Shown: piece after piece, positions 16,062 to 33,633 of the stretch
How the letters are laid out: every line of letters starts with the position of its first letter
Numbering within the stretch: position 1 is the stretch's first letter
Assembly: GCF_009914755.1 (NCBI RefSeq)
Contig: NC_060940.1
DNA length: 64,000 nucleotides
Reading direction: 5' to 3' (one strand)
Origin: the human T2T-CHM13v2.0 reference genome, Homo sapiens
Made by a program: the position numbers and the translations under genes
Notes under the pieces: generated by a model
Told to the model about the DNA's origin: nothing
Databases searched by the model: none
The model's input: only the letters and a program-made list of their open reading frames with translations

Positions 16062-17836
16062 GCGGTCGCCTCCTGTCTGTCACCAAAGAGAGGAAAGAGA
16101 GCATTGTCATAAATTCTGGGCTTTGGGGACAACACAGAGGTTAGGAGAAACCTGTGGTCAGTGCTGATGGTGACTGTGGTCCCTACTGACTTGTAGAACA
16201 AACTCTCCACATTTCTGAGCAGAAAGTCTCAGTTCTGCTGTGTGATGGTCATTTCTCTCCTCTGACCCCGAGGTCCGTCCTTTTGACCTCTCACTGACTT
16301 GTGGGTCTCTGGGTCTGAGGTCAGAACTCAGAGCCCACTTCTCCAGGCTCAATACTTCAAAGGCAATCCCTCAAAAAGCCTTTGGCCAATCCTGAACTGA
16401 CCTTGCAAAGCTGAAGACAGCTCTGGGGCAGCACCGTCCAAAAGAAATAGAATGTGAGCCACCTGTGCAATTTACAATGTTCTAGTACCATTGCCAATAG
16501 TTTGCCAATCCTCTCCCTTGGAAAGAGATATGCGACTTGTTCTTCCCATTTGGTCTTTGTCCTGAAAACAACAAAACCCAGAAAGCAGCACCTCTGCAAG
16601 ATTTCCCTGTGTATCCTTGCATTTTTGCAACTACATGGCCAATTGACAGGGAAAAGATCCAATTGATAGAGTGTCTCAAATTGTTCCAACATATAGAACA
16701 TGAATAATAATTATTTTCGAACTCCTGTTCAAAGGAAAACTCACTGACATGAGACAAGTGACTTTTGGCAATTACCATCAACATTTTGTTATAAAAATGC
16801 TCATACATACAACATTGATTTGTTAACATTTTAATGAACATGACAACACATATCTACCCATCTTTCCATTCCTCTACCCATCCCTCAGCCCATCTTATTT
16901 TACATGTATTTCCAACTGAATTGGAGGCATCAACATACTTCCTGCTGAATAGTTTGGCAAGACTAACATTAACTAGAATTCAATATTTCTTTATAAAATT
17001 TTCTTCTAAAGAAGAGTGACATAGAAGAAAATATGCAAATCTTAAGTGTGAGTTTACTAACTTTGAAAAGTACCTACACCAGCATAACCCACCTCCTTTT
17101 CAAGATCTACACTATTATGTCACCACAGAAAGTGAACTCTCCCTCTTCCTAGCCAATCCCTTTCTCATAGTAGGTTAATTTTGCTTAGTCTGGAATTTCA
17201 CATATATAGATGCATGCCATGCCATAGGTACTCTTTTGTGTCTGCCTTATTCTGCTCAACACAATGTTTCTGAAATCATTCCCATTGTTGCACAGATCTC
17301 TAATTCAATCCTTTCCATTTTGGACTCAGCATATTCTGAGTTTAACCTGTTGAATGGCTATCTCTGTTTAATTCGCCATCTTGAAACATTTAAAATTAAG
17401 ATGTTTTCAAGAATATACAGTTAAATCCAAGGAATCAATGTAGGAATGTTATCAGAAGGTGTTGGAAGTTACTCAGGTGAAATCTTTGTCTTAATTCACG
17501 TAAGAGTCTAATGGAATTAATATCAAGAATCTTAGAGAAACCCCATACTATTCATGCCATTTTTATGACCTCTACATTGGTTATGTTTAAGCACTAAAAT
17601 TTGATACTTATTTCTGAATGAAATCATCTCTTTATTGTATTTTTTTTACTTATGCTGATCTTTAAATAGCAAAAATTCATGTACTCTAAGAAAGAAGTAT
17701 GATTCAGAGGGATTCTTTCATCATATGGTACATGACAAATAGATACAATGTCATATTCAATTTAAAACATAAGTAAATATAAGTAAATAAGTAAATAAAA
17801 GTAAATAACTTTAAAGAAAAGGTAATTACCTTATAC

Positions 17837-18063
17837 CTAGCTTGTCTAACCCACAGCTGACAGGCCACATGCAGCCCAGGACAGCTTTGAATGCAACCCA
17901 AAATGAATGTGTAAACTTTCTTAAAACATTATGAGTTTTTTGTGTGTTTCTTATAGCTCATCAGCTATTGATAGTGTTAGTGTATTTTATGTGTGGCCCA
18001 AGTTGAAGAAAATTCTCCATCTTCTAATATAGCCCAAGGAAGCCAAAAGATTGGACATCCCTG
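17837..18063 (-). mobile_element. MER30 (hAT) DNA transposon
   Basis: Terminus reads cagggatgtccaatcttttggcttcc on the minus strand. Confidence 0.7.
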
Positions 18064-18301
18064 CTTTAGACCAAGAAAAAAGACACACCACATTCACAAA
18101 GCCTAAGAAGACTACCAGCCATGCGAGAAACATGGGACTGGTAATTTCCAATCTTTCTTGAAACGGTGGAATCCCCTGGTGATATCTGAGGGTGCACTTA
18201 CTTCTTGGAGGAGGTTGAGGGTTTCTAAGGATAATTCTTTGTGACTGAAATATTGTAAATGTCATTGACCCTTCTCATTATTTCAACTGCTATTATTCCA
18301 G

Positions 18302-18433
18302 GTCATCAATTTTCTGCCTGGCCATCTTCATCCTGGGCCTGACTTTTTTTGAATTCCTTGGATGCTTAACATTGTTGTTGTGTTCCTGGGAATTATTAAA
18401 TTTGCCATTTTCTTCTGGAATACTAGCTTTGGT
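18302..18433 (+). pseudogene. NPIP exon-2-like relic (inverted relative to the other NPIP-like exons)
   Basis: ttccag|VINFLPGHLHPGPDFF*IPWMLNIVVVFLGIIKFAIFFWNTSFG|atgagt versus NPIPA [43 protein letters not shown] (from memory). Confidence 0.75.
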
Positions 18434-19009
18434 ATGAGTATACTGACTTCCTGTAGAGGTATACTTGTAATCATAAATAAGAAGAAATCATTTTAAACAA
18501 TTCATGGTTCTGGACTTCATTATGAATATTGGGTTTTACCAAAAAAATCAGAAAAAAATAATTTATTAGCAGAAGAATTATAAAAATAGCTGCCATTTAC
18601 ATTATGAAAATTAAATAGGTTTGCATTTGTTTAGTAGGATGCCAACAGAGCTTTTGGTCAAAAGTATTTTTTTTTTTTTACCTTTGTTCTCTTTATCCAT
18701 GAGGGCAAAGATCATGTAAAACAATTTTGAGCATATAGTAGTTGCTTAACTAATAGGCATTGGATGAGTTATTAATTTGTGATAATAGTTCTTTCCCCTT
18801 AAATCTGATTGTTTGTTATTATGTTAATTCTGAGTCCAGAAACACAAATTTTTTAAGTGTTGATTTCTTGGATTTTTTAATGTGCTATTGCGCTTATTTT
18901 AAAGGCTAGTAAAACTGATCTTCTAAACAATTGCTATTCTCCTAGTAAATGTTCCTTCAATGGTAATGGAAGCCATGTGCAGACAAGACACCCTGCAGCC
19001 CTTCAATAA

Positions 19010-22000
19010 GAGCTGGCAGGCTGGCTGGATGAGAGGCTGGCCAAGGGGGCAGCTAGGAGGCTGGTCCAGAGGAAGTCTGAGAGGCCGGCACTCAGACCTC
19101 TCAGAGAGACTGGCTGAGAGGCTGTCTGGATTAAGAGCCAGACAAGAGGCTGCCTGAGAGGCTGTATGAGAGGCTGGCTGCCTCAGAGGTTGACTGGTTG
19201 AAAGGCTGGCTTAGAGGCAGGCTGAGAGGATGGCTGGATTAGAGGCTTGCTGAGATGCTGACTGGTAAGTTGGCTGGCTGAGAGGCTGGACAAGGGGGTG
19301 GCTGAAAGGCTTGCCAAGAGGCCGGCTGGCAATCTGGTACAGAGGCTGGCTGAGAGGCTGGTCCAGAGGATGGCGGCATGGGAGGCTGACCAAAAGGCAG
19401 GCCAGGAAGCTGGTTGGGAGGCTGTTTGAGAGACTGGCTGGGGAGGCTTGGAGAAAAGCTGGCTGAGAAGATGGCAGGCTGATAATCTCACTGACCGAGA
19501 GGCTAGCTTAGAGGCTTGCTGAGAGGGTGACTGGCTGAGAGGCTTATTGATAGGTTGGCGGGAAGGCTGGCTGGCTGAGAGGCCAGTCAAGGGGGTCTTG
19601 GAAGCTGGCCAAGAAGCCAGCTGCCTGGATGGCCAAGAGGACACCTGAGAGGCTGGCCGAGAGGCTGACTGGGAGGCTGTTTGAGAAGCTTGCTGCCTGA
19701 GAGGCTGGCTCAGAAGCTGCCTGGTTGAGAGGCTGGCTGAGAGGCTTGCTCAGACGCTGGCTGGCAGGTTGGCTGGCTGAGGGGCCACCCAAGGGTGTGG
19801 CTGGGAGGCTTGCTGAGAGACCAGGTGTCTCTCTGGTTGAGAGGCCAACTGGGAGGCTAGTCAAGAAGCCAGCTGGAAGGCTGGCTGAGAGGCTAGCCGG
19901 GAGGCTCCTTGAGAGGCTAGCAGTCTTGCTGACTGAGAAGCTGGCTGATAGGCTGGTCCAGAGGATGGCTGCATCAGAGGCTTCCAAAGAGGCAGACTGG
20001 GACGATGGCCTAGAGGGCTGTATGGGAGGCTGTGTGACAGGCTGGCTGGCTGAATGGGCTAGCGACTGGCTGAGAGAATGGCTGGCTGAGAATCTGCCTG
20101 GCTGAGAGAGGCTGGCTGCCTGAGAGGCTTGTTCAGAGGATGCCTGGTGGAGAGGCTGGCTTAGAGATTGACTGAGAGGCTGGCCGAGAGGCTGGCTGGG
20201 AGGCTGTTTGAGAGGCTGGGTGAGAAGATGACTGTTTCAAAGGCTGTCTGACTGACTGGCTGAGCTAATTAGAGGCTTACTGAGAGGCTGGATGGCTGAG
20301 AGGCTGGCTAGGAGGTTGTTTGAGACGCTGGGTGAGAAAATGACTGTTTCAAAGGCCATCTGACTGACTGGCTGAGTTAGAGTCTTACTGAGAGGCTGGC
20401 TGGCTGAGAGGCTTGCTGAGAGGCAGGATGGCAGACAGCCTGGCTGAGAGCTGGCTGCCTAAAAGGTCGGCTGAGAGGCTGCCTGAGAAGCTTGCTTGCT
20501 GAGAGGCCAGCTGGCAGGTTGGCTGGCTGAGAGGCTGGCAAAAAGGGCAGCTGTGAGTCTGGCCAAGAGGCTGGCAGTCTGGCTGGCAGTCTGGCTGGCT
20601 GAGAGGTTGACTGGAGGGCTAAATGAAAGACTGGCTGCATGGCCAAATGGCTGGCTGGGAGGCAGGCAGAGTGGCAAGTTGAGTGAATGGCTTGCTGAGA
20701 GCCTGGCTGTGAGGTTGCCAGGCTGAGAGGCTTGCTGAGAGTATGGCTGGCTTAGTACCTGGGAGAAAGTCTGGATGGGAGGGTGGCTGGCTGGGGAACT
20801 GGCCAAGGGGCCACCTGGGAGGCTGGCCAATGAGAGGCCAGCTGGGAGGGTAGCAGAGAGGCTGGATGAAGGGTGGCTGCCTGAGAGGCTTGCTCGCTGA
20901 GAGTCTGGCTGACTAGCTGTATTAAAGGTTGGCTGTGTGGTTTGCTGGGGGCCTGGTAGAGGGGCTGGTTGTGAGGCTGCATGACAGGCCTTCTGGCTGA
21001 TAGGCTGGCAGGCTGGCAGTCTGGCCAAGAGACTTGCTGGGTGGCTTGCCGAGTGGATGGCTAAGAGGCTGGTTGAGAGGCTGGCTGGGGAGGCCAGCAG
21101 AGAGGTGGCTGGTTGGCTGGCTGAGAATCTGCCTGGCTGACAGGCTGGGTTAGAATCTTGTTGAGAGGCTGGCTGGCTGAGAGGCTTGCTGAGAGGTTGG
21201 CTGGTTGGTTGGCTGGCTGAGAGATCGGCCAATGCCGGGCTGGGATGCTGGCCAAAGGACGCCTGGGAGGTTGGCCGACAGTCCAGCTGGGAGGCTTGCT
21301 GAGAGGCTGGTTGGAAAGTTGGCTAAGAGGCTGCCTGGAAGCCTGGGTGAGAGGACAGATGGGGGGCTGGCTCTGAATCTGCATGGCTGAGAGACTGGCT
21401 TAGAAGATTTATGAAAAGCTGGCTTAGAGGCTGTTTGAGAGGCTGGCTGTCTGAGAGGCTGACTCTGAGACCTCCTTGCTGAGAGACTGGCTTAGTGGCT
21501 TGCTGAGGGGCTTGCTAGCTGAGAGGCTTTTTGAGGGCCTGATTAGCAGGCTAGCTGGCTGAGGCAAGTCAAGGGGGTGACTTGGAGGATGGTCGAAGGG
21601 CCATCTAGCTCACTGGTCAAGAGGCTCGCTGGGAGGCTGGTTGAGAGGCTGGCTCCCTTGATGGTTGGGAGGCTGGCTGATAGGCTGGTCCAGAGGATGG
21701 CTGCATGGGAGACTGGAGAAAAGGCAGGCTGGGGGGCTGGATATCAGGCTGTTTAGAGGCTGTTTTAGAGGCTGTCTGGGGAGTCTGGCCAAGTGCAGGC
21801 TGTGTAGCTAGCTGAGAGGGTGGAGGTGAGAATGGCTGACTGAGAATCTGCATGGTTGAGAGGCTGGGTTAGAGGCTTGCTGAGATGCTGGCTGGCTGAG
21901 AGGCTTGTTGGGAGGTTGAGAGGTTGGCTGCCTGAGAGGCTAGCTCAGAGACCACGTTGTTGAGAGGCTGGCTTAGTGGCTTGCTGAGAGGCTGGCTTGC

Positions 22001-24175
22001 TGAGAGACTTGCCAAGAGGCTGGGAAGCAGGCTAGCTGGCTGAGACGCTGGTCAATGGGGCGTCTTGGAGGCTGGCCGAGAGGATGTCTGAGAGGATGGC
22101 TGGCTGTGTTTCTGCCTGGCTGAGAGGCTGGCTTAGAGGTTTGCTGAGAGGTTGGCTGGCTGAGAGGCTTTCCGAGAGCCTGGTGGTATGTTACAGAGGA
22201 TGGCTGCTTGACAGGCTGGCTCATAGGCTGCCTGGTGGAGAGGCTCACTTAAAGGCCAGCTGAGAGGCAGGTTGAGAGGTTTACTTGCTTAGAAGCTGGC
22301 TGGCAGGCTGGCTGGCTGGCTGAGAGTTTGCTTGGTTGGCTATCTTAAAGGCTGGCCAAGTAGCTTGTTGTGAGGCTGGATGGCAGGCTTTCCGGCTGAG
22401 AGGCGGTCTGTCTGACTGAGTGTCTGACTTAGTGTCTGGCTGAGAGGCTGCCTGGTTGAGAGGCTGGCTTAGAGGCTTGCTGTGAGGCTGGCTGGCTGAG
22501 GCTTGCTGTGCGGATGGCTGGCTGAGGCTTGCTGAGATGCCGACTGGCCGGTTGGCTGGCAGAGATGCCAGCCAATGGTGCAGCTGGGAGGCTTGCTGAG
22601 AGGCTGGCTGGCTCGCTGGTATAGAGGCCACTTAGGAAGCCAGTCAAGAGGCCAGCTGGGAGACGGACTCAGAGGCTGGCTGTCCTGCTGGCTGAGAGAG
22701 TGGCTCATAGCCTGGTCCAGAGGATAGCTGCAAGGGAGGCTGGGGAAAAGGCAGGCTGGGAGTCTGGCCTAGAGGCTGTCTGGGAGGCTGTTTAACAGGC
22801 TGGCTGGGGAAACCAGCTGAGAGGCTGGTTGACTGGTTGGCTGAGAAGCAGGCTGAGAAAATGCCAGGCTGAGAATCTGCCTGACTGAGAGGCTGGCTGA
22901 GATGTTTGCTGAGACAATGGCTGGCTAACTGTCTTGCTGAGAGGCTGGCCATGAAGCTGTTTGAGAGGCTGGCTGAGGAGGCTGAGCAAGAAGCCGGCAG
23001 GCAGGCTGACTGAGAGGCTGGCTGTCTGGCTGTTTGAGAGACTGGCTGTCTGGCTGTTTGAGAGACTGGCTGTCTGGCTGTTTGAGAGACTGGTTGAGCG
23101 GAAGTCTGGCTGAGAATCTACCTGGCTGAGAAGCCAGTTTAGAGGCCTGTTGAGAGGACGGCTGACTGAGAGACTTCTAAGAGTCTGTTTGAGAGGGTGG
23201 CTGCTTGAGAGGATGGCTGAGAGGCTGCCTGGCTGAGAGGCTGTCTTAGAGGCTTGCTGAGAGGTTGGCTATCAGGCTGACTGACTGAGAGGCTGGCAAA
23301 GGTGGTGCATATAGGCTGGCCAAGAGGACACCTGGGAGGCTGGGCAAGAGGTTAAATGCATGAGAGCCTGGATGAGAGACTGACTGGGAGGCTGTTTGAC
23401 AAGCTGGCTGCCTAAAAGCCTGGCTCAAAAGCTGCCTGGTTGAGAGGCTGGCTTAGAGGCTTGCTGAGAAGCTGGCTGTATTAAAGGCTTGCCTAGAGCA
23501 TGGTTGTCAGGCTGGCTGGCTGTCAGGCTGAGCAAGGGTTTATCTGGAAGGCTGGTCAAGATGCAGTCTGGGTGGCTGCCTGGCTGAGAGGCTGGTTGCC
23601 TGGGAAGCTGGCTGAGAGGCTGCCTGCCTGCAAGTCTGGCTTAGAGGGTTACTGAGAGGCTGGCTGGATTAGAGGCTTGCCTGGAGGCCAGCTAGTAGGT
23701 GGGCTGGCTGAGAGGCTAGCTGCTTGAAAGGGCAGTTGAGAGGCTGGCTGAGAGGCTGGCTGGGAGGCTGTTTGAGAGGCTGGCTGCCTGAGAGACTGGC
23801 TCAGAGGCTGCCTGGTTGAGAGGCTGGCTTAGAGACTTCCTGAGAGCCTGGCTGGTTGAGAAGCTTGCTAAGAGACTGGCTGGCAGGTTGGCTGGCTGAG
23901 AGATCTGCCAAGGGGGTGGCTTGGAATCTTGCCCAGAGGTGGGCTGGCTCCCTGGTTTAGAGGTTACCTCGAAGGCTCACCAACAGACTGCCTGGGAGGC
24001 TGGCAGAGAGACCCACAGGCTAGCTGTCTTAAAGGCCAGCTGGGAGGCTGGCCGAATGGCTGGGTGAGAGTCTGACCTAGAAGAGGGCTGGGAGGCTGGG
24101 CTGGCTGAGCTGCTGGCTGGCCAAGAGGCTGGATTAGAGGCTGAGTGGCTGGCTGGCTCAGACACCTCAGAGCCC
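19010..24175. repeat. 5.2-kb degenerate tandem repeat built from GGCT and 12-mers such as GGCTGAGAGGCT and GCTTGCTGAGAG
   Basis: Seen directly. G-rich plus strand; minus-strand frames encode S/Q/P/L/A-rich repeats (SQPLSQPASQPLSKPL). Confidence 0.95.
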
Positions 24176-25498
24176 TGGTCCATGGGTTTTCTTAACTATC
24201 AACCGCCTCTGGACAGGTAGGGCTCTAAGAAGCTACAAATGAGCTCTAAATCAGGGGTTCCCAGTACACATCAGAAAAAAGATCACTCATCCTGTAAACA
24301 GAGACTAAAATTTAAAATAGAAACAGCCATGGATTGGAAGAATATCAATAAACCCTGAAAAGAAACAGCACTGCTCCTTTTCTTCAAATCGTGTGGACAT
24401 TTAAAGTTCTGTACATTTATAGCTACTTTAACTTTCATATCTGTCCAGGTACTATCAAAATGTAAGAACAGAAATGGACATAAACTGACTAGAAGTACTG
24501 AGAAAAGGTAAGAGTGTCAGAAATTAACTGAAAAGTTTTAGGGTTACACCTAGAATGTTAGAAGAGTAAGATTACATGGAAATTTAATTTCCTAATGGAG
24601 TTATATTATATAGTCCACAATAAACAATTAAACAAAAAAATGAAGCTCCAAAAAATGTAAATAAATGCTTCTTTTCTTAAACCAGACCTCATGGTGCAAT
24701 ATTGATCTATGAAGACATAGCCAGAAAACGTCTGCTCTCATCAGCACATATAGCTCCCATTCTAAAATGTTATTGGTATTACTTTTCTCAAATGAAGGAA
24801 AAATAAAGCCTAGATGCTGACCGAAGGTGGAAGGGGAGCTGGTCCCTTTGCTTTCTAGGCTCCTCTTCTCAGTTAAAAGTAACCAAGATGTCAGAGTGGG
24901 GCAACGTCCACAGTCAGTGGATGATCCTGAGCTCTGCCATTCTCAGGGGACCATCGAAAAGACATTCAGCTAGGGCATCTGAGAAAAATAGGGTCCTGCC
25001 ACCAAGAGAGACACATGTTCTCTGTAGTAAGTGCTTAGAATTGCTTCCAGGAAATATAATTGTTACCCCACCTGAGCTCTCAACCCCAAAAGGAGAAGCA
25101 GGGTGTGTGGATTGTGCAGCAGAAGTGACTACCTTCACAGTGAGCTCCTACCTCTCCAGAAAGTGCTCTCTAGGCCCAGTTGTCCCTGGGCTGGCTCCTG
25201 ACTCTTGTGTATCTCCATGACTCTCTGCTTTTCCATCATTTCCCATCTGGAAGACAGAGAAAGAATTCACTTGAAGAAGAATTAAAACACCAAGTTCTTT
25301 ACTAGACACTCAAAGCTTCATCTGAAAACAAAAACATCCTTAAAAATGTCTATCACAATTACCTACCTGTGCTGCTTGTAGGCAGCCTTCCTCTCTGCCA
25401 TCTCCCTCTACAAGGCTTTTGCACAGAGCTGTGGGGAGAAAAATACATCCACGTGCTGACCTGGCAGACTATGCCCAAAAGCAAGGGGGAAAAACTGT

Positions 25499-25534
25499 CC
25501 AGTTGTCAAGGGCCTTTCTTATAGAAGGGACAAT
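25499..25534 (-). pseudogene. NPIP exon-7-like (36 nt)
   Basis: ttttcag|IVPSIRKALDNW versus IPPSARKALCNW; donor lost. Confidence 0.8.
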
Positions 25535-25644
25535 CTGAAAAAAACCAACACATGAGAAATTCTATGTTGAGAGAGTCTAACGGCCATGGCATCATCCACA
25601 TCAGCACCGAAGGAGCCTACAACTGTGGGGAGGAAGCTCCTTAC

Positions 25645-25705
25645 CTTGCGTCTGTAGTAGCTTTCTACTCACCCCCAAAGCTCTTGGGTGTCTTGAATTA
25701 TTTTC
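25645..25705 (-). pseudogene. NPIP exon-6-like
   Basis: KIIQDTQELWG*VESYYRRK|gtaagg versus KMFQRAQELRRRAEDYHKCK; acceptor reads tg. Confidence 0.75.
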
Positions 25706-26362
25706 CAATGGTTTAGAATCACTTTCATCAAATAAGCACCATTTCAGTATGATTTTAAATAATCTGCCATGTTTCTGTTATCCTCACAACTGCACCCTTA
25801 CACTATCTATACACAGAAGATGTATTTCACATGGTTTTCAAAGTACAGTATGATCAAAACTGTTGCTATAATGATTCTTCCTCTTTTACTTAATGCCTGC
25901 TGGGTTCTGAGTTCACATTGTCCTTACCCATTCTCATTCATCCTTCATTGGGCATCTTTGATTATAAAGCTCTAGTCTCCTTGTATTAATATCCTTGCCA
26001 TATTTCACAGAGTAGAAACGGCTGGGCACAGTCCATTTGAAAAAATGTGGTTGATCCTACAACACGCTTTTCTAAGAATGACGGCAACGGATACCACCCC
26101 TACAATGGCAGAAATGAACTGAGTTTCTACACAGTCTGACCCCATTGGGGTCAGATGTTTTGCTACTTCACATGTCTTGGTCACTGATAAATCTTAAGGT
26201 ATTTTGTTTTCTCTTGTGTGAATTCTCTCTTTCTCTAAATATGTCTTCTGACCATTTGTTTGTATTTCTGTGTTAACTGGGTCTAAACATTGTACAAAAG
26301 TTAAAAACAAAATACTCCAGTGGAAGTTTCCCATGTGGCTGGTGTTCAGTTTCTGAACTCAC

Positions 26363-26464
26363 TTGTAGGTGTGAATTTTTTCCATAACCCATTTCCCTTT
26401 TTCCTCCACCTCTGACAGCTGCCTCTCTTTTTCTGCTCACTCACATTCTTTCATTCTCAGCTTC
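26363..26464 (-). pseudogene. NPIP exon-5-like
   Basis: ctcag|(R)KLRMKECE*AEKERQLSEVEEKGKWVMEKIHTY|gtgagt versus [34 protein letters not shown]. Confidence 0.85.
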
Positions 26465-26688
26465 CTGAGATGAAAACGGAGAGAAATGCACACACATGAT
26501 CCACTTGCCCATGTGGGATTCTTTCTGCCATTCTGGCATCTGAAGGCCATGATTCAAAGGTCCCCCACTGCCTTCCCATACATGAAACAACTGATATTCA
26601 ACACTGGGGAGGAAGAATTGACACCTCCCATTGACAGACAGAAAGAATTTAAAAAAAAAAACAACACTCTGGCCTGTTAGCAAGTCAC

Positions 26689-26758
26689 CTGTAATTTCCA
26701 GCTCGTCTTTGTGTCTCCATAGTCCTATTCTTAAGTAAATAAGGACCATTAGAAGCTT
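26689..26758 (-). pseudogene. NPIP exon-4-like (short, divergent)
   Basis: catag|(E)ASNGPYLLKNRTMETQRRAGNY|gtgact, 70 nt, phase 1-2; weak match to LRRHVETKVRAK. Confidence 0.55.
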
Positions 26759-27135
26759 CTATGAGATGTGCTATGTGTACTTCTGGGGTCAGTCTTGTGC
26801 TTGACACACTGAAAGCTCATTTTAGTTCACTGTGGAAAATCAGATCTCACCAACTCATCACAACTAACTCCATCAAGATGGAGCAGGGGATCACTCTTCA
26901 TCTGACTCCTCCCATAGGAAGACCTGATTCTCATTTACAGGCTGATGCCAGAACCCAGACAATTAGCCTTTGAGAGATCCTTCCAGGACATGATGTCCTT
27001 AACCCTGCAGTTCACTACAGCATGTTTCCATGACTCAGGACTGGAACTCTTGTCATTGACCTGAAGGCAAGAAACTGTTCTCCTTTCCAGGGCAAACTCA
27101 TTTCCATACTATGGGGACTCCAACAGACAGCATAA

Positions 27136-27235
27136 CTTCCTGGCTCTGCTTGTTGGACCTCCAAGCTCTCTGCTGCAGATCTGTGGATCCATCATTTACA
27201 TTTCATGACTTTGAGACAGACTTGGGAAAAGACAT
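27136..27235 (-). pseudogene. NPIP exon-3-like
   Basis: ttcctag|[32 protein letters not shown], 100 nt, versus [33 protein letters not shown]; donor reads tt. Confidence 0.85.
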
Positions 27236-29309
27236 CTAGGAAATAACTGAAAAATGACATGAGAATACCTCACACCTGAACTGTACACTTCAACATTGTT
27301 AAGACGGCAATGGTCATGTTATAAATGTTTTATTATGAATATTTTACCACAGGTTAAAATGTTTAACAATTTGAAAAGGAAGTAATTATCTTCAGTTCTC
27401 TAAGTTCTAGAATTTGTAACATTTCACCCCCTGCTCCTTCCCGATCCGGAGCAGAGCATCTTATTCTTTCCCTGCTCTACTCAGGATTCACTTTCCCTTA
27501 TGTAACAAAAACATTGCAAATATTTTTTAAAATAATTACAAAACTTTACCTAGAAATCTGTAATTCAAATTAAAATGGAGATTAAAAATACAAACTCACA
27601 ATGGTCAGGAAGCCAAGATCTTTTTTTAAATATTTATAAATTTGCATTACACTATTTGTAATATGTCCAAAAATATGTCCACACTGTATGGAAGAATGGG
27701 AAAAATATAAGAAAAAAAGGCTTACGGTTATAGATGAAAATATTACATAAAGACATGTTTATATATACACAAAACTGAGAGAGGACAGCTGCTGTAATAA
27801 TAATACCTGGGTTATATTTCAACAAAATAAACACAGACTGTTGTTTAGCCCAAGTTTATAAAAACATTAACTTTTGAAAATTAATGTTCACTTTGCTGCT
27901 GAAACAGCTGCACTTCATGTCAGATTTTCAAAGTCCATAAAGATTTGCATAACATAGTCTTCCTGGAATTATAATTCAAACCGAGAGAATTGAAGTTAGT
28001 TAAAAACACAATACCAAGACACCAATAACAAGAGTTCCCCTTCATATTTTAGAGCATTGCACATAAAGAAAGCAATCAGTAGCAACCTTGGAAATCCATA
28101 TGGAAAGCAATAAAAACTTTCTGGGATGTATAGCCACTGCCACAAAAGGCACACATATTATTTTACAAACACTAGATTTATGAGTACTGGGGGAGAAAAT
28201 GAATACGAAATGTAATTCAGACCAACTGACATACCAAGACTCACTTTTGTGCAAACAAAACATCTCTAAAAAGCAGCCTCTGAGCTCTGCAGCACTTTCA
28301 TCTTCAGCCTCACAGTGGAGGTGAGTGCGGCCTGGGCTCCTGGGAAGGACACACTGTTTCTGAGTAGCCTCTGTCTGAAAGGGACCAGGAGCTCTGGGCA
28401 CAATGGTTAAAGATGTGGATCAAATGCACGAGAAGGACAAAGGCCATCTTTTCATTGACCAGGAAAACAACCCCCATCTTGGGCACTCTTGTCACATCTG
28501 ACAACTATCTGGATGCAGCTTATCAGTAGTGGGCTCCTACCTAGATTAGGTCCAAAGGGGCAAGGAAAGCTTAGGTTCTGACAGTCGACGGCCATGAGCA
28601 AGGGTGAAGGTGGAAAATGCAATGAGGAAAACTTATCCAAGTCTTCAAAGGTGAGGTAGGGAAAGAGAGTTTAACTGATCTATGAAAATGCAGCCAGGTA
28701 AGGAGAAAAAAATTCCAACAAAGATTATCAAGACATTTCCTTCTTCATAACCTCAAAAGAAACAACAAATTCTTCTTTGGTTGGAGGTACTCATGCGAGG
28801 TGATTCTGCCTTGATGCAGTGGTTGCTCCCCATCACTAGACTTTTCCAGATCCCTCTCTAAGAATCTGGTGCATGCCGGTCAGAACAAATACTCTCATCT
28901 CTATAAGGTGCCCTCTCCTGAGGGTAGTGGTGAGGCTTATAATGTGAGGGTGGAAACTTTCAAAGTAAAAACCTGTCATTTCTTTATGTTTGGACACTCA
29001 TAGGACTTTAAGACTCTTTCTGCTTTGGGTAAATCAATGATCTACACAAGACACATTTTACAAAACAAAGGTCAGTAGAGTTCTCATTCACATCCTGGTC
29101 ATGTCACTCCTAGTGACTCCCGCATTGCAAACATCCCAGCAGGATGCAACCCTTTCCTCTCCCATCTGATTGGCTTCTCAGGCTACCTTCACACCGATTG
29201 GACATAGACTCCCTGGAGGCAGCTCCCAAGAGGAGAACACATGGATGACTCCAAAGTTTCTAAACAAATCATCAAACCAGATGACACAAAACTCAAATGA
29301 CATTTCACT

Positions 29310-29590: not shown

Positions 29591-29659
29591 TGTAGTTTTA
29601 TGCCGCCTGACACTACCCAACAAAAAGGAAGAAACCCCATGGGTCCAGCATCTACTTAC

Positions 29660-29747
29660 ATGGGTGGGTTGATGGCTAGAAAACCCCTGCAGGAGGAGCC
29701 AAAACAGCAGCCACCACGCAGGTATGTCCTGGTCCTCTCAGGGCACC
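29660..29747 (-). pseudogene. NPIP-like signal-peptide exon with ATA at the start position
   Basis: Long pyrimidine tract, cag| acceptor, IPAWWLLFWLLLQGFSSHQPTH|gtaagt versus NPIPB15-type MRLRFWLLIWLLLGFISHQPTP. Confidence 0.8.
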
Positions 29748-30649
29748 CTGAGGTGGCCAGGACAGAGGTGGGAGTGGCTTAGGACTGGGGGAAGGAAGGG
29801 GATAGGGATGGGGGTGGGATTGCAGTTGAGGAGGGAGGGGGAGGGCAGGGAAAAGGAGGGAAGGGAAGGGAGGGCTGTTGGGCACCCAGAGCAGGAGGAA
29901 GACAAGGGGCTCTGGGAAAGGATCTGGTTCAAACTAAGTCCTCAAGCACCGGTGGGAGATTCAGCTACAGGTTAGAGAGAAAGGCGATCAGCTATCAGTG
30001 AAGCAGCAGGACACTTGGGGCAGGGGAGTGGGAGGCTCAGGAGCAGGACTCTGGTTTCCGCCAAACCTTCTCCTGTCTGGAAGCTGCCTTAGCAAATCCT
30101 GAGGCTTTATACTCCCTCTTCACAAATCCCCAGCCCGGTACTTGGTGCCTCACAGTGGACAATCCACAAGAAGCTCGTGTTCTTCCAAGGTCCCCTCCCC
30201 CCACCTGAACCCCCACCCCCAACCCAAGGACAAGTCCTCTCTGGAACCTTCGCAGACCTTCTGATTTCTGGGTGCCAGCCCACTCTGGCCCAGGGTAGGG
30301 TCCTGGGGGGCACACCTCTCTTTCTCTCTTGACTTCTAGATCTGCTAAGCGCCATGCAACACCGCCCTGTCTAAACATACCCACACAGGGTCCCAGGCTC
30401 AACCCTGTGCCCCTGTCCCCACAGTCACCAACCCTGGCCTCTCTGGCATCTCAGGGCCCAGGAACAGCCCTTCTGAAGGCCCTGGAAGGGGCACACACCC
30501 AGCCCTGGGTTTGGAACCTGGAACATATCCCCTTCCAAGAGAGCTCAGGAGGGCCAGGTCATGCCTGGGTCTGTTCTCTCCACTGCCTTAGGAGTGCCCT
30601 GTGGAGTGCCATCGCCGTGTGGTTGTCCTGTGGGCTGGGGTCTGGGACT

Positions 30650-31146
30650 GTGTGCATGTCTGGATGTGTTAATCTGCACGTATGCACCTGTGCGTCTGAG
30701 TATCTGTGAGTATGTCACCGTGTAGCTGTCTCTGGATAGCTCTGTTTTTCTCTATCTTTGTATGCATTTGTGTGTCTTTCTTCCTGAATGAGTGTGTGTT
30801 TGTTGTACAAATATGTGTGTTTGTGACTGTGTAATGTGTCTCTGGGCATGTATGCCCCTGTGAGAGTGTCTGTGTATGCCTGTGTTCTGTATCTGTGTGT
30901 GTTGTTTGGTGTGTGTGTGTATGTGTGTGTTGTGTGTGTGTGAATTCGCCTCTCCTTTGGGCATCCCTGATTGTGTCTCTATTTGTTTATGTTTCTCTTA
31001 ATGTCTGTGTTCTCTGTCTGTTTCCCTGCCTGTAGGTCTGTGACTGTGTGTGTGTGTGTGTGTGTGCATGCACGAGTGTCCATTGTGTGTGGGGTCTGCC
31101 CTGTGGGGCTGTGTCTCATGGCCTTGTGTATCTGTGGTCTCCTGGT

Positions 31147-31188
<42 letters not shown>

Positions 31189-31290: not shown

Positions 31291-32200
31291 CCTGGGTTTG
31301 TACACCTAAGAAATTGGCAGTCACAGAGGGCCCTCTGTGGGTGAGAAGGGGACAATATGTGCTCCTCTCATTCCCAGGCTAGGCCCTTTCTGCCCCTGCT
31401 CTTCTGAGCCTCTGTTGGCCCCCTGGTAGTTCCCTCTTAGGCCCCAAGGAGGGATGGAGAAAAGGGTCAGGTTACAGAATTCCAGGCCAAGGATGTGAGG
31501 AGGGCTCCAGATGCCTGGACAGGGTTACATTCAAAGAAGGAAAATTGTCTGTGGTCAAGGAATTCTGGACTACAGGGACCCTAGGCCCTGGGAGGGTGAA
31601 TGAGTGGGGTCCTCTGGCAAGGGCTGGGGGACAGAGTTCCTGGGTCACTTGGAAGATCTGATATGTAGGGTCCTACAGGGGAAAGCTGGAGGCAGGGCTC
31701 CTAGGCCCATGGCAGGGCTGCAGGAGTCCTGGGTCCCTAGAGGTTGGGGCTCTCACTCACACACACCATAGGTTGGGATGCATGTGCACATGGGCATTAT
31801 TGGGGGACACAAAGGCAGAAGCCCATTGGGCGGAAGATCATTGAGTGGAAGACCACTGGGTGGAAGCCCATTGGGTGGGGTGGCAGAGGTGGTCTGGCAG
31901 GCAAATGTAGTCCCCAAACCAAGGCTGACCACCCTGGACATCCGTCCTGCCCTGGCCTTGCTGGGGCCTCATCCAGACCATGGGCAGGTGCCTGGAGCCA
32001 CATGGGGCATCCCTCCTGTACCCCTGTGTCCTGGCTATTGAAGGGTGCTTAGGTAACCCTGAGATGCTGGTGCCAGGAGGGAGAATCTGGTCCCAAGTTA
32101 TCTCAGGTTAGAGATTAGGGAGAATTACAGAGGGAGGGCATTTAACATAGGTTAATTCCCTGAATAAATGCTCAACACAGGGTATTGTTGATATCAGTAT

Positions 32201-32206: not shown

Positions 32207-32435
32207 ACTTGCGTTATGAGTGCTCACCTGGGAAATTCTAAAGATACAGAGGACTTGGAGGAAGCAGAGCAACTGAATTTAATTTAAAAGAAGGAAAACA
32301 TTGGAATCATGGCACTCCTGATACTTTCCCAAATCAACACTCTCAATGCCCCACCCTCGTCCTCACCATAGTGGGGAGACTAAAGTGGCCAGGGATTTGC
32401 CTTAGGTGTGCAGTGCGTTCTGAGTTCACTGCCGA

Positions 32436-32522
32436 TTACATCTGACCAGTCTCCTTTTTCCGAAGTTCCTTCCGTTCAATCTTGCCAGTGATGGTTTTTG
32501 GCAGCTCTGAGACAAACTCCAC
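32436..32522 (-). CDS. ACSM1: ACSM1 last coding exon
   Basis: cag|[28 protein letters not shown]; contains the catalytic-lysine motif LPKTxTGK. Confidence 0.95.
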
Positions 32523-33045
32523 CTGGTTGAGGATAAAGCAAATCCACAGTGATTGAGTCCTGCTGCCATTTCCTAACAATTCTCCACTCTCCTCCTCTGC
32601 CCCTCCACAGTCTCCCATGCAGGCTGACACCATATGGTGGCCTTAATGGAGTCCCCAAGTATTTCAGGTTCTCCCCCTGGCCCCTAGAAGGTGGATGTAC
32701 CCATGGGATTTGCTTTGACCCAGGAGATGTGAGTGGAAGTGAAGCATGTAACCTTGAGGCAAAAGAGTTGGGAGCCATTGAGACTGACCACCCTCTCCTT
32801 CATCTCTTAGAGCAGCTGACAGGTCCCATATGGAGGCTGCTCCTTTATTCTGGTGGCAGAATGAGGAGATGTGGAGGGCAGGGCCAAGGAGAGCCATGGA
32901 GGACATGAGGCATGAGCAGAAAAAGAGCCTTCAGTGTTGTAAACCTCCATTGTTTGGGGCTGTTTGTTACCTCCAGTGATACCTAGCCCGTCCTAGCAGG
33001 GAACGCTTCAGGGCCACCAGATCCCTTCCATCTGCCCTCACTCAC

Positions 33046-33165
33046 CTTCCTTGGGTACTTGTATGGGGCTGTCACTGACTTGACATGCTGCTGCAGTTCC
33101 TTGGTCAGCTGATCCTTGTCATGGGACAGGAACTGTGGGGTCAGGACAATAAAGGCCTTCACCAC
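33046..33165 (-). CDS. ACSM1: ACSM1 exon 13
   Basis: [40 protein letters not shown], 120 nt, cag|...|gtgagt. Confidence 0.95.
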
Positions 33166-33633
33166 CTGCAGAATGAAGTCATGGGCTCACAGTGAGTGCC
33201 AACCTACTCCATAGCTTAAAAAGTCAATGTTTATTGAATGAGTGGTAAAACAAGGTGACACTGAACCCTACAGTGTTTTGGAAAAGGAGAGGACCAGGTG
33301 TAAATCCCTGTGTTTCCAATTCCCACTCCATGCCTTGAAAAGTTATTTGACCTCTCCTTAACCTCAGTTTTCTTTTCTGTGAAATGGGGACAATAAAGCT
33401 TCCATTCTTCATTTGGTTTCTTTAAAGCTTCCATGAGATAATACATATAAAACATCCAGCTAGTTTACTTTTATTATTACTCCCGTCATCAATATTTTCA
33501 TCATCATTTTTACTGTTATTATATATGTAATTCAGTGCCAGAAACCCAATGGGCATTCCATAATTACTGGCAATTTATTATTTTTAGATTAGCAATGTTA
33601 TCCAAGTTTTATTGCACAAGGTCTCACATATAG

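What the first reader, a model, noticed from the sequence alone, without database searches (positions are those of the whole stretch)
16700..18950. NPIP exon-2 homolog is inverted and displaced beyond the gene's 3' end
Seen: the hydrophobic VINFLPGHLHPGPDFF*IPWMLNIVVVFLGIIKFAIFFW exon (18302-18433) lies on the plus strand, distal to the terminal repeat. I found no exon-2 homolog in its expected slot between 27235 and 29660 on the minus strand. Inference: either an inversion or transposition broke the gene, or this is a remnant of a second, oppositely oriented copy, perhaps tied to the inverted duplication that created ACSM5P1. Breakpoints would lie near 16.7 kb and 18.95 kb.
Basis: partly seen in the sequence, partly recalled or inferred. 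Interest (0 to 1): 0.72.

Follow-up and report, generated by a model that had tools for sequence, protein, structure and literature searches.

The report
Displaced exon in ancient NPIP relic
A dead, unannotated relative of the NPIP genes sits just downstream of ACSM1, and its membrane-spanning exon has been flipped and moved past the gene's tail; this is an ordinary scar, but the dead gene may mark where the NPIP family began.

Summary
They match Pfam NPIP positions 1-43 at E 4e-15.

The rest of an NPIP-like pseudogene lies on the minus strand, directly 3' of ACSM1:
- exon 1: 29660-29725
- alternative exon 1b: 27597-27692
- exon 3: 27137-27235
- exon 5: 26350-26463
- exon 6 (weak): 25639-25770
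- exon 7: 25360-25537
- a 5.2-kb tandem array: about 18997-24190

Six-frame profile and tblastn scans of the whole window find exon 2 once only, on the plus strand. The expected slot shrinks to 360 bp (27236-27596) and holds no exon 2.

Paralogous predicted genes in gibbon, bonobo and orangutan keep exon 2 in line with the other exons, so the human layout is derived. Exon 2 is as far from those paralogues as the minus-strand exons are. That fits one old gene rearranged rather than a recent insert.

Neither the mechanism nor the link to the ACSM5P1 duplication could be tested, because no other primate DNA was available.

Wider lead: macaque, orangutan, gibbon and bonobo paralogues carry copies of the ACSM1 3' exons fused to NPIP exons. 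This locus may therefore be the parent of NPIP and its duplication unit, LCR16a.

The parts
18302..18433 (+). NPIP exon-2 homologue (transmembrane exon), with an in-frame TGA at 18350-18352
   Evidence: Pfam NPIP E 4.1e-15, profile 1-43; 70% identity to P0001; local profile positions 3-56, iE 1e-18.
18230..18301 (+). 3' end of the intron upstream of exon 2, carried along with the exon
   Evidence: orangutan P0005 read-through FSLFQLLLFQ is identical to the window. MIA3-like P0006 and P0007 read-through aligns from 18230 and 18251.
18434..18460 (+). 5' end of the intron downstream of exon 2; the in-frame donor reads ATGAGT here
   Evidence: bonobo P0027 read-through GVSTLTFPRG aligns to window GMSILTSCRG. 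One search gives the bases.
18997..24190 (-). Tandem array built on a 12-nt unit (CTGGCTGAGAGG on the plus strand), one orientation throughout; probably the gene's 3' terminal repeat
   Evidence: TRF 19145-23903; blastn self-hits from 18997 to about 24160. C-terminal repeats of P0016, P0024 and P0066 give only weak minus-strand hits, E 0.002-0.006. Assigning the array to the gene is an inference.
25153..25251 (-). Distal coding remnant of the relic (profile positions 237-268)
   Evidence: iE 0.0075; 90% identity over 20 aa to siamang P0029 and P0030.
25360..25537 (-). Exon-7 homologue with one stop; used in another frame as the terminal exon of a bonobo ACSM1 isoform
   Evidence: Pfam NPIP E 4.6e-7; iE 7.4e-19. 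P0067 residues 409-465 are 94-98% identical.
25639..25770 (-). Exon-6 homologue (weak)
   Evidence: profile 139-182, iE 0.0032.
26350..26463 (-). Exon-5 homologue (KLRMKECE*AEKERQLSEVEE...), one stop
   Evidence: iE 2.4e-13; 79% identity to P0003 and P0004.
27137..27235 (-). Exon-3 homologue (MSFPKSVSKS*NVNDGSTDLQQRAWRSNKQSQE), one stop
   Evidence: Pfam NPIP E 2.8e-6; iE 5.5e-9.
27236..27596 (-). The slot where exon 2 should lie: 360 bp with no exon-2 homology
   Evidence: Searches find no exon-2 match. One search gives the sequence. The bounds come from exon 3 and from the exon-1b homologue.
27597..27692 (-). Homologue of an alternative upstream exon (1b), which is spliced to exon 2 in an orangutan paralogue
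   Evidence: P0002 residues 6-37, 59% identity, E 2e-10.
29660..29725 (-). Exon-1 homologue of the type that starts MRVQ/MSVW/MPVW in paralogues; ATA where paralogues have ATG; followed by donor GTAAGT
   Evidence: 80% identity to P0016 residues 4-23, 74% to P0032 residues 1-23.
31337..31423 (-). Sequence downstream of ACSM1 that is also present in the macaque paralogue
   Evidence: P0043 residues 116-144, 62% identity, E 3e-7.
32388..33186 (-). ACSM1 exon 13 (33046-33165), intron 13 and exon 14. The paralogous NPIP-like loci carry copies of these pieces, spread across different models
   Evidence: exon translation. P0043 covers exon 13, 16 aa of intron and exon 14; P0066 covers intron 13 at 32585-32709 (64% and 91% identity in two pieces)..

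Best explanation
The piece at 18302-18433 (+) is the true exon 2, the transmembrane exon, of one old and decayed NPIP-like pseudogene that RefSeq does not annotate here. I call this copy 'A-type'. Its other exons run on the minus strand from 29.7 kb down to a 5.2-kb terminal tandem array that ends near 19.0 kb, directly 3' of ACSM1 and on the same strand.

Exon 2 has left its slot, which is now a 360-bp gap at 27236-27596. It took at least 72 bp of upstream and 27 bp of downstream intron with it. It now lies inverted on the far side of the array, next to the end of the ACSM5P1 duplication.

Shown:
- the identity of the exon
- its single-copy status in the window
- its orientation
- the empty slot
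- the colinear layout in paralogues

Inferred: the mechanism. I favour a local three-break 'cut, flip and paste', or equivalently two nested inversions: first exon 2 through the array, then exon 3 through the array.

The change has no likely function, because the gene is dead. Exons 2, 3, 5 and 7 each carry a stop. Exon 4 is missing. The exon-1 start reads ATA. The exon-2 donor appears lost.
For: - Identity: Pfam NPIP E 4.1e-15. The exon is 64-71% identical to exon 2 of gibbon, bonobo and orangutan NPIP-like models.
- Minus-strand gene: Pfam hits in 2 of 124 fragments. The local profile maps exons 3, 5, 6, 7 and the tail on the minus strand only. Exon 1 at 29657-29716 is 80% identical to P0016.
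- Single copy: tblastn with 74 proteins and the profile over six frames of all 64 kb find exon 2 once.
- Ancestral order: P0001 and P0027 join an ACSM1-like exon to exon 2 and then exon 3. P0002 joins the homologue of 27692-27597 (-) to exon 2. So exon 2 belongs between 27596 and 27236 on the minus strand.
- Same age: exon 2 is 64-71% identical to the second lineage (B-type) and 52-64% to non-African-ape LCR16a-type proteins (26-56% to the three African-ape ones). Exons 3, 5 and 7 are 60-73% and 52-82% (short alignments left out). Exon 2 is therefore not a recent import.
- No duplicated sequence: blastn of 16.0-19.2 kb against the window finds only array matches, from 18997 onward. The array has one orientation throughout.
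Against: - No breakpoint is mapped at base level. The left edge of the moved piece is unknown.
- No inverted repeats that could mediate inversions remain. The only pair of 40 nt or more in 12-32 kb is unrelated.
- Exon 4 is simply absent. Exons can therefore be lost from this relic by plain deletion, which weakens the 'each part present once' argument and keeps copy-then-delete models alive.
- The paralogue evidence comes from predicted protein models, not from genomic alignments.
- No orthologous locus from another species could be examined.
Confidence: 0.55

Rival explanations
1. Templated inverted copy. When the ACSM5-ACSM2 block was duplicated in inverted orientation, a replicative template switch copied the exon-2 region backwards into the junction. 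The original exon 2 was later lost by deletion from the slot.
For: - The exon lies between the end of ACSM5P1 (16123) and the array, which is where the duplication junction should be (hub table).
- The relic clearly suffers deletions. Exon 4 is gone, and the exon 1b to exon 3 distance is only 360 bp.
- Cantsilieris et al. 2020 list an ACSM2A/ACSM5 duplicon, chr16:20411068-20501378, as African ape/prosimian and associated with LCR16a (passage seen).
Against: - It needs two events.
- No trace of the original exon 2 or its flanks remains in the slot.
- The duplication boundary was not located.
- Nothing in the window dates the exon move relative to the duplication.
Confidence: 0.25
2. Remnant of a second, oppositely oriented NPIP-like copy placed tail to tail. 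Everything but exon 2 was deleted from it, and the surviving minus-strand copy independently lost its own exon 2.
For: NPIP-like loci do exist in several old lineages. The B-type models P0001, P0027, P0033, P0043 and P0066 are distinct from this locus and from LCR16a. Deletions occur in the relic.
Against: - No other NPIP exon lies on the plus strand anywhere in the 64 kb.
- The array is not palindromic.
- No inverted homology exists between 16-19 kb and 24-32 kb.
- It requires one duplication plus at least three deletions that happen to be complementary.
Confidence: 0.1
3. Not a real feature: a chance hydrophobic open frame, or an assembly error.
For: None found. The exon carries a stop and is short.
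Against: - Pfam E 4.1e-15.
- 26 database hits that share the PGPDF..G.PW motif.
- The flanking intron homology is conserved.
- The hub states that the window is from the T2T-CHM13 assembly.
Confidence: 0.02

Closest known systems
NPIPA/NPIPB genes of the LCR16a core duplicon ('C-type' here: P0016, P0019, P0028, P0044, P0056 and others)
   Same: They share the exon set: exon 1 of the MRVQ/MSVW/MPVW type, the transmembrane exon 2, and exons 3, 5, 6 and 7. They share the Pfam family PF06409 and a proline/serine-rich repeat tail. NPIPB-type proteins begin with an exon derived from the very ACSM1 exon that lies 3.3 kb upstream of the relic's exon 1 (passages of PMC12790995).
   Different: Amino-acid identity is only 52-82% exon by exon to non-African-ape LCR16a-type proteins, and lower to African-ape ones. 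The relic has stops in four exons, no exon 4, and exon 2 inverted and displaced. It is not annotated as an NPIP gene in the hub table. It lies at 16p12.3 beside ACSM1, whereas the papers place the ancestral LCR16a at 16p13.1.
'NPIPA2-like' predicted genes of gibbon, bonobo, macaque and orangutan ('B-type' here: P0001, P0027, P0043, P0066, plus unnamed P0033)
   Same: These are the closest relatives of the displaced exon, at 70-71% identity. Between them they contain copies of ACSM1 exon 13, intron 13, exon 14 and the sequence downstream of ACSM1, followed by NPIP exons in the same order as in this window.
   Different: They are a separate locus. Bonobo has both a true ACSM1 (P0067, whose tail is 94-98% identical to the relic) and B-type P0027. 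Their ACSM1-like exon ends ...TVSCKSPRK rather than ...TAPYKYPRK. They keep exon 2 in line with the other exons. Their genomic position is unknown to me.
Transmembrane exon of MIA3/TANGO1-like proteins (P0006-P0009, P0013, P0015, P0017, P0018, P0020-P0023, P0025, P0026)
   Same: They are 37-52% identical to the exon across the motif LP....PGPDF.G.PW plus the helix. The exon start is the same, and there is homology in about 24 codons of upstream intron. Pfam NPIP scores above its cut-off on three proteins that also carry an SH3_2 domain. Bekpen et al. 2017 already note 16-27% similarity of NPIP to MIA3 (passage seen).
   Different: The window's exon carries the NPIP-specific residues (VIN.LP.H.HPG, GIPW) and is closer to NPIP models at 64-71% identity. 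The names MIA3 and TANGO1 for these hits are my recollection. The tools gave no names for them.

Membership tests
NPIP (Pfam PF06409) | Sequence match to the family profile above the curated cut-off | tested here: met
   Exon 2 scores 56.6 bits against 27.5. Exon 3 scores 27.7 bits and exon 7 scores 30.3 bits.
NPIP (Pfam PF06409) | Exons colinear on one strand (1, 2, 3 ... terminal repeat) | tested here: not met
   Exon 2 is on the plus strand beyond the array. All other exons are on the minus strand.
NPIP (Pfam PF06409) | Open reading frame (functional gene) | tested here: not met
   There are stops in exons 2, 3, 5 and 7. Exon 4 is absent. The exon-1 start reads ATA.
LCR16a core duplicon copy | High DNA identity to other LCR16a copies; counted among the 27 NPIP genes that the 2025 paper annotates in T2T-CHM13 | tested here: inconclusive
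   Only protein-level identity could be measured, and it is at most 82% to any fetched NPIP protein. The hub table has no NPIP entry here.
MIA3/TANGO1 family | SH3 domain, transmembrane region and long coiled coils in one gene | tested here: not met
   Only the transmembrane-exon homology and short coiled-coil-like exons are present. No SH3 match appeared in the 226 stop-free fragments sent to Pfam.

The most novel reading that the evidence does not exclude
This relic is the birthplace of NPIP and of the LCR16a core duplicon. A partial genomic copy of a MIA3/TANGO1-like gene landed just 3' of ACSM1. ACSM1 exon 13 began to splice into it, as a bonobo ACSM1 model still does into exon 7. The unit made of the ACSM1 3' exons plus the NPIP exons was then duplicated away and seeded both the B-type locus and LCR16a.

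On this reading the 'MVKL' first exon of NPIPB was inherited together with the gene. It was not gained by an independent duplication of an ACSM1 exon, which is how the 2025 Cell Genomics paper describes it. The inverted exon 2 would be a later scar in the abandoned parent locus.
Probability: 0.4. Interest if true: 0.7.

Novelty: new member of a known kind. Interest (0 to 1): 0.45.

Why it matters
The flipped exon is a neutral rearrangement in a dead gene and changes nothing functional.

The dead gene matters more. LCR16a/NPIP is the best-studied 'core duplicon' driving segmental duplication on human chromosome 16, and its origin is unsettled. Three things together give a concrete hypothesis that can be tested from genome alignments:
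- An old NPIP-like relic lies directly downstream of ACSM1, on the same strand.
- Catarrhine paralogues carry copies of the ACSM1 3' exons, intron 13 and the sequence downstream of ACSM1, fused to NPIP exons.
- A bonobo ACSM1 model splices into the relic.

The hypothesis is that NPIP arose at the ACSM1 3' flank and took an ACSM1 exon with it. The orientation of exon 2 would then serve as a marker for dating events at the parent locus across primates.

Tried and rejected
- Six-frame Pfam scan of 14-32 kb with stops read as X: errored because too much text had to be printed.
- The same scan without a code: errored on stop codons.
- I then sent stop-free fragments of 20 aa or more: 124 minus-strand fragments from 24.5-32 kb and 102 fragments of both strands from 16.1-19.2 kb. 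The 102 plus-strand fragments of 24-30 kb listed were never sent to Pfam. That stretch was covered by local tblastn and a local profile instead.
- Word-indexed search with exon 2 among longer proteins: no candidate.
- Search for other ACSM1-relic chimeric proteins using the P0067 tail: only P0067 itself.
- Exon 4: no match on either strand. The best scores were iE 0.16 and 6, at 6.3-6.8 kb, which is noise.
- Other LCR16a-type 5' exons (the MFCC... exon and the ...VTLRNPGSSGR... exon): nothing significant. The best was E 0.02-0.04, including a weak match at 30067-30162 (-).
- Inverted repeats that could mediate inversion: none relevant.
- Location of the two dog NPIP copies: not given in the passages or in the two held supplement files of PMC7419210.
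- Search on ACSM2A, ACSM2B and ACSM5P1: 58 papers held at least two of the terms, 12 were listed, and none concerned the duplication's structure (listing only).
- Treating the exon as a MIA3-type exon rather than an NPIP one: rejected, because it is 64-71% identical to NPIP models and 37-52% to MIA3-like ones.
Full report
**The observation.** With that stop read as X, the 44 residues match Pfam NPIP (PF06409) at E 4.1e-15. The score is 56.6 bits against a 27.5-bit cut-off, over profile positions 1-43 of 207. A phmmer search of 1.84 billion representative proteins gave 26 hits at E<=1e-3. The best was P0001, at E 2.3e-10 and 70% identity. A later search named P0001 'NPIPA2-like [Hylobates moloch]'. 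This is a real NPIP exon-2 homologue and not a chance hydrophobic frame.

**The gene it belongs to.** I cut the minus strand of 24.5-32 kb into 124 stop-free fragments of 20 aa or more. Two of them hit Pfam NPIP: 27101-27202 (profile 55-77, E 2.8e-6) and 25411-25518 (profile 161-192, E 4.6e-7). None matched profile 1-43.

I then ran local tblastn with the fetched proteins and a 268-position profile built from 12 of them over all six frames of the whole window. Together they give this map:

| Part | Coordinates | Strand | Note |
|---|---|---|---|
| exon 1 | 29657-29725 | - | 80% identity to P0016 over 29657-29716 |
| exon 3 | 27134-27235 | - | |
| exon 5 | 26350-26463 | - | |
| exon 6 | 25639-25770 | - | weak |
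| exon 7 | 25360-25497 | - | |
| tail piece | 25153-25251 | - | |
| exon 2 | 18299-18463 | + | the only copy |

Exon 4 has no match on either strand. The tandem array has a 12-nt unit, CTGGCTGAGAGG, in one orientation throughout (TRF 19145-23903). By blastn it runs from 18997 to about 24160. It gives only weak minus-strand matches to NPIP C-terminal repeats, E 0.002-0.006. Calling it the gene's terminal repeat is therefore an inference.

In 16.1-19.2 kb, 2 of 102 fragments from both strands hit NPIP, and both are halves of exon 2.

The gene is dead:
- Exons 2, 3, 5 and 7 each carry a stop.
- Exon 4 is gone.
- Exon 1 has ATA where paralogues have the start codon.
- The in-frame exon-2 donor reads ATGAGT. 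A bonobo model reads through this junction as VSTL..., where the window reads MSIL....

**Where exon 2 should be.** Predicted proteins of gibbon (P0001) and bonobo (P0027) join an ACSM1-like exon to exon 2 and then to exon 3. The orangutan model P0002 joins a 32-residue N-terminal piece to exon 2. That N-terminal piece matches window 27692-27597 on the minus strand at 59% identity, E 2e-10. An upstream exon, which I call 1b, is therefore still in place on the minus strand. Exon 3 begins at 27235. The slot for exon 2 is the 360 bp at 27236-27596, and it has no exon-2 homology.

The paralogues keep the colinear order, and so do the MIA3-like proteins to which NPIP is related. The human layout is therefore the derived one.

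**What moved.** Intron sequence travelled with the exon.
- Upstream: the read-through FSLFQLLLFQ of an orangutan model is identical to the window, and MIA3-like models align from 18230.
- Downstream: the bonobo read-through aligns to 18460.

How far the moved piece extends beyond 18230-18460 is unknown. blastn of 16.0-19.2 kb against the whole window finds nothing outside the array. The only inverted repeat of 40 nt or more in 12-32 kb is unrelated.

**One gene or two.**
- Each exon occurs once.
- No other plus-strand NPIP exon exists in the 64 kb.
- The array is not palindromic.
- Exon 2 is 64-71% identical to the B-type models and 52-64% to non-African-ape LCR16a-type proteins. Exons 3, 5 and 7 are 60-73% and 52-82%. 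All parts look equally old.

I therefore favour one gene rearranged by a three-break cut-flip-paste or by two nested inversions, at confidence 0.55.

The loss of exon 4 shows that plain deletions do happen here. An inverted templated copy made at the junction of the ACSM5-ACSM2 duplication, followed by deletion of the original, therefore stays open at 0.25. A decayed second copy is less likely, at 0.1.

The link to ACSM5P1 and the 16.7-kb breakpoint could not be tested. Cantsilieris et al. 2020 give an ACSM2A/ACSM5 duplicon starting at chr16:20411068 (passage seen). How close that lies to the ACSM5 start I know only from memory, so I draw nothing from it.

**The wider picture.** ACSM1 exon 13 (33046-33165, minus strand) translates to [40 protein letters not shown]. 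Two NPIP lineages begin with a copy of this exon:
- LCR16a-type NPIPB proteins: MVKLSIVLTPQF...TCPCEYLRK.
- A second lineage, which I call B-type (P0001 gibbon, P0027 bonobo, P0043 macaque, P0066 orangutan, P0033 unnamed): [12 protein letters not shown]...TVSCKSPRK.

Macaque P0043 carries, in order:
1. the exon-13 copy;
2. 16 residues of intron-13 read-through;
3. an exon-14 copy;
4. a homologue of window 31337-31423, which lies downstream of ACSM1;
5. NPIP exons.

Orangutan P0066 also carries intron-13 sequence, at 64% and 91% identity in two pieces. B-type is a separate locus. Bonobo has P0027 and also a true ACSM1 (P0067). P0067 splices exon 13 directly to the relic's exon 7 at 25537-25368, at 94-98% identity. 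No other protein with that tail was found.

The simplest reading is that a block running from ACSM1 exon 13 through the NPIP exons was duplicated from this locus. This locus would then be the parent.

[quoted passage not shown] The papers place ancestral LCR16a at 16p13.1 and mention two dog copies and a gene at least 70 million years old (PMC7419210, passages seen).

My searches were:
- NPIP + ACSM1: 5 papers held both terms, 3 were listed, and only the pangenome paper was relevant.
- 'morpheus gene family' + 'acyl-CoA synthetase': 2 papers, 1 listed.

Neither turned up a description of the relic. Subscription papers such as the original 2001 and 2006 LCR16a papers are not in the library. I could not see Figure S3 of the 2025 paper or the figure-based supplements, and these may bear on the claim.

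**Relation to MIA3.** Fourteen of the 26 phmmer hits are not NPIP models. They share LP....PGPDF.G.PW plus the helix at 37-52% identity. One further hit (P0010) is unrelated. Pfam NPIP scores above its cut-off on three proteins that also have an SH3_2 domain (P0020-P0022) and on three short models. It gives no hit on P0017, P0025 or the unrelated P0010, so 6 of 9 scanned proteins match. I recognise these as MIA3/TANGO1-like from memory, and the tools gave no names. No paper holds both NPIP and TANGO1. Two papers hold NPIP and MIA3. One of them, the Bekpen et al. 2017 preprint, already notes 16-27% similarity (passage seen). The new detail here is that homology reaches about 70 bp into the upstream intron, which points to a genomic copy rather than a retrocopy.

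**Verdict.** The flipped exon itself is an ordinary, neutral scar in a pseudogene. The pseudogene is an unannotated, old member of the NPIP family, and its position beside ACSM1 gives a testable account of where NPIP came from.

Noticed in passing
window 33046-33165 (-), with 32388-32709 and 31337-31423 (-): ACSM1 exon 13, intron 13, exon 14 and the sequence downstream of ACSM1 all have copies within NPIP-like predicted proteins of macaque (P0043) and orangutan (P0066). Gibbon and bonobo models (P0001, P0027) start with the exon-13 copy. This suggests the ACSM1 3' end and the NPIP exons were duplicated together from this locus.
   Followed up: partly
window 25368-25537 (-): A bonobo protein named ACSM1 (P0067) splices exon 13 (...APYKYPRK) directly to this relic exon in a shifted frame, at 94-98% identity. 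This skips the normal last ACSM1 exon. No second protein with this tail was found.
   Followed up: partly
window 18230-18433 (+): Exon 2 and about 24 codons of the intron upstream of it are homologous to the transmembrane exon of MIA3/TANGO1-like proteins (name recalled). Pfam NPIP also scores on SH3_2-containing proteins. NPIP therefore looks like a partial genomic copy of such a gene.
   Followed up: partly
window 26464-27136 (-): Exon 4 of the NPIP model (GIK...SHYKINGQRKT...) is absent from the relic and from the whole window on both strands.
   Followed up: yes
window 18997-24190: This is a 5.2-kb degenerate tandem array built on a 12-nt unit, with higher-order periods of 24, 28, 40, 104-112 and 188 nt. 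The annotated lncRNA LOC107984831 starts at its left edge (19132, plus strand) and runs antisense across the relic.
   Followed up: no
window 30067-30162 (-): There is a weak match (E 0.04, 40% over 32 aa) to the N-terminus of orangutan model P0005, upstream of relic exon 1. It may be a 5' exon remnant or may be chance.
   Followed up: no
window 30894-30942 and 31145-31186: (TG)n and (GT)n microsatellites lie in the GC-rich stretch between the ACSM1 3' end and relic exon 1.
   Followed up: no
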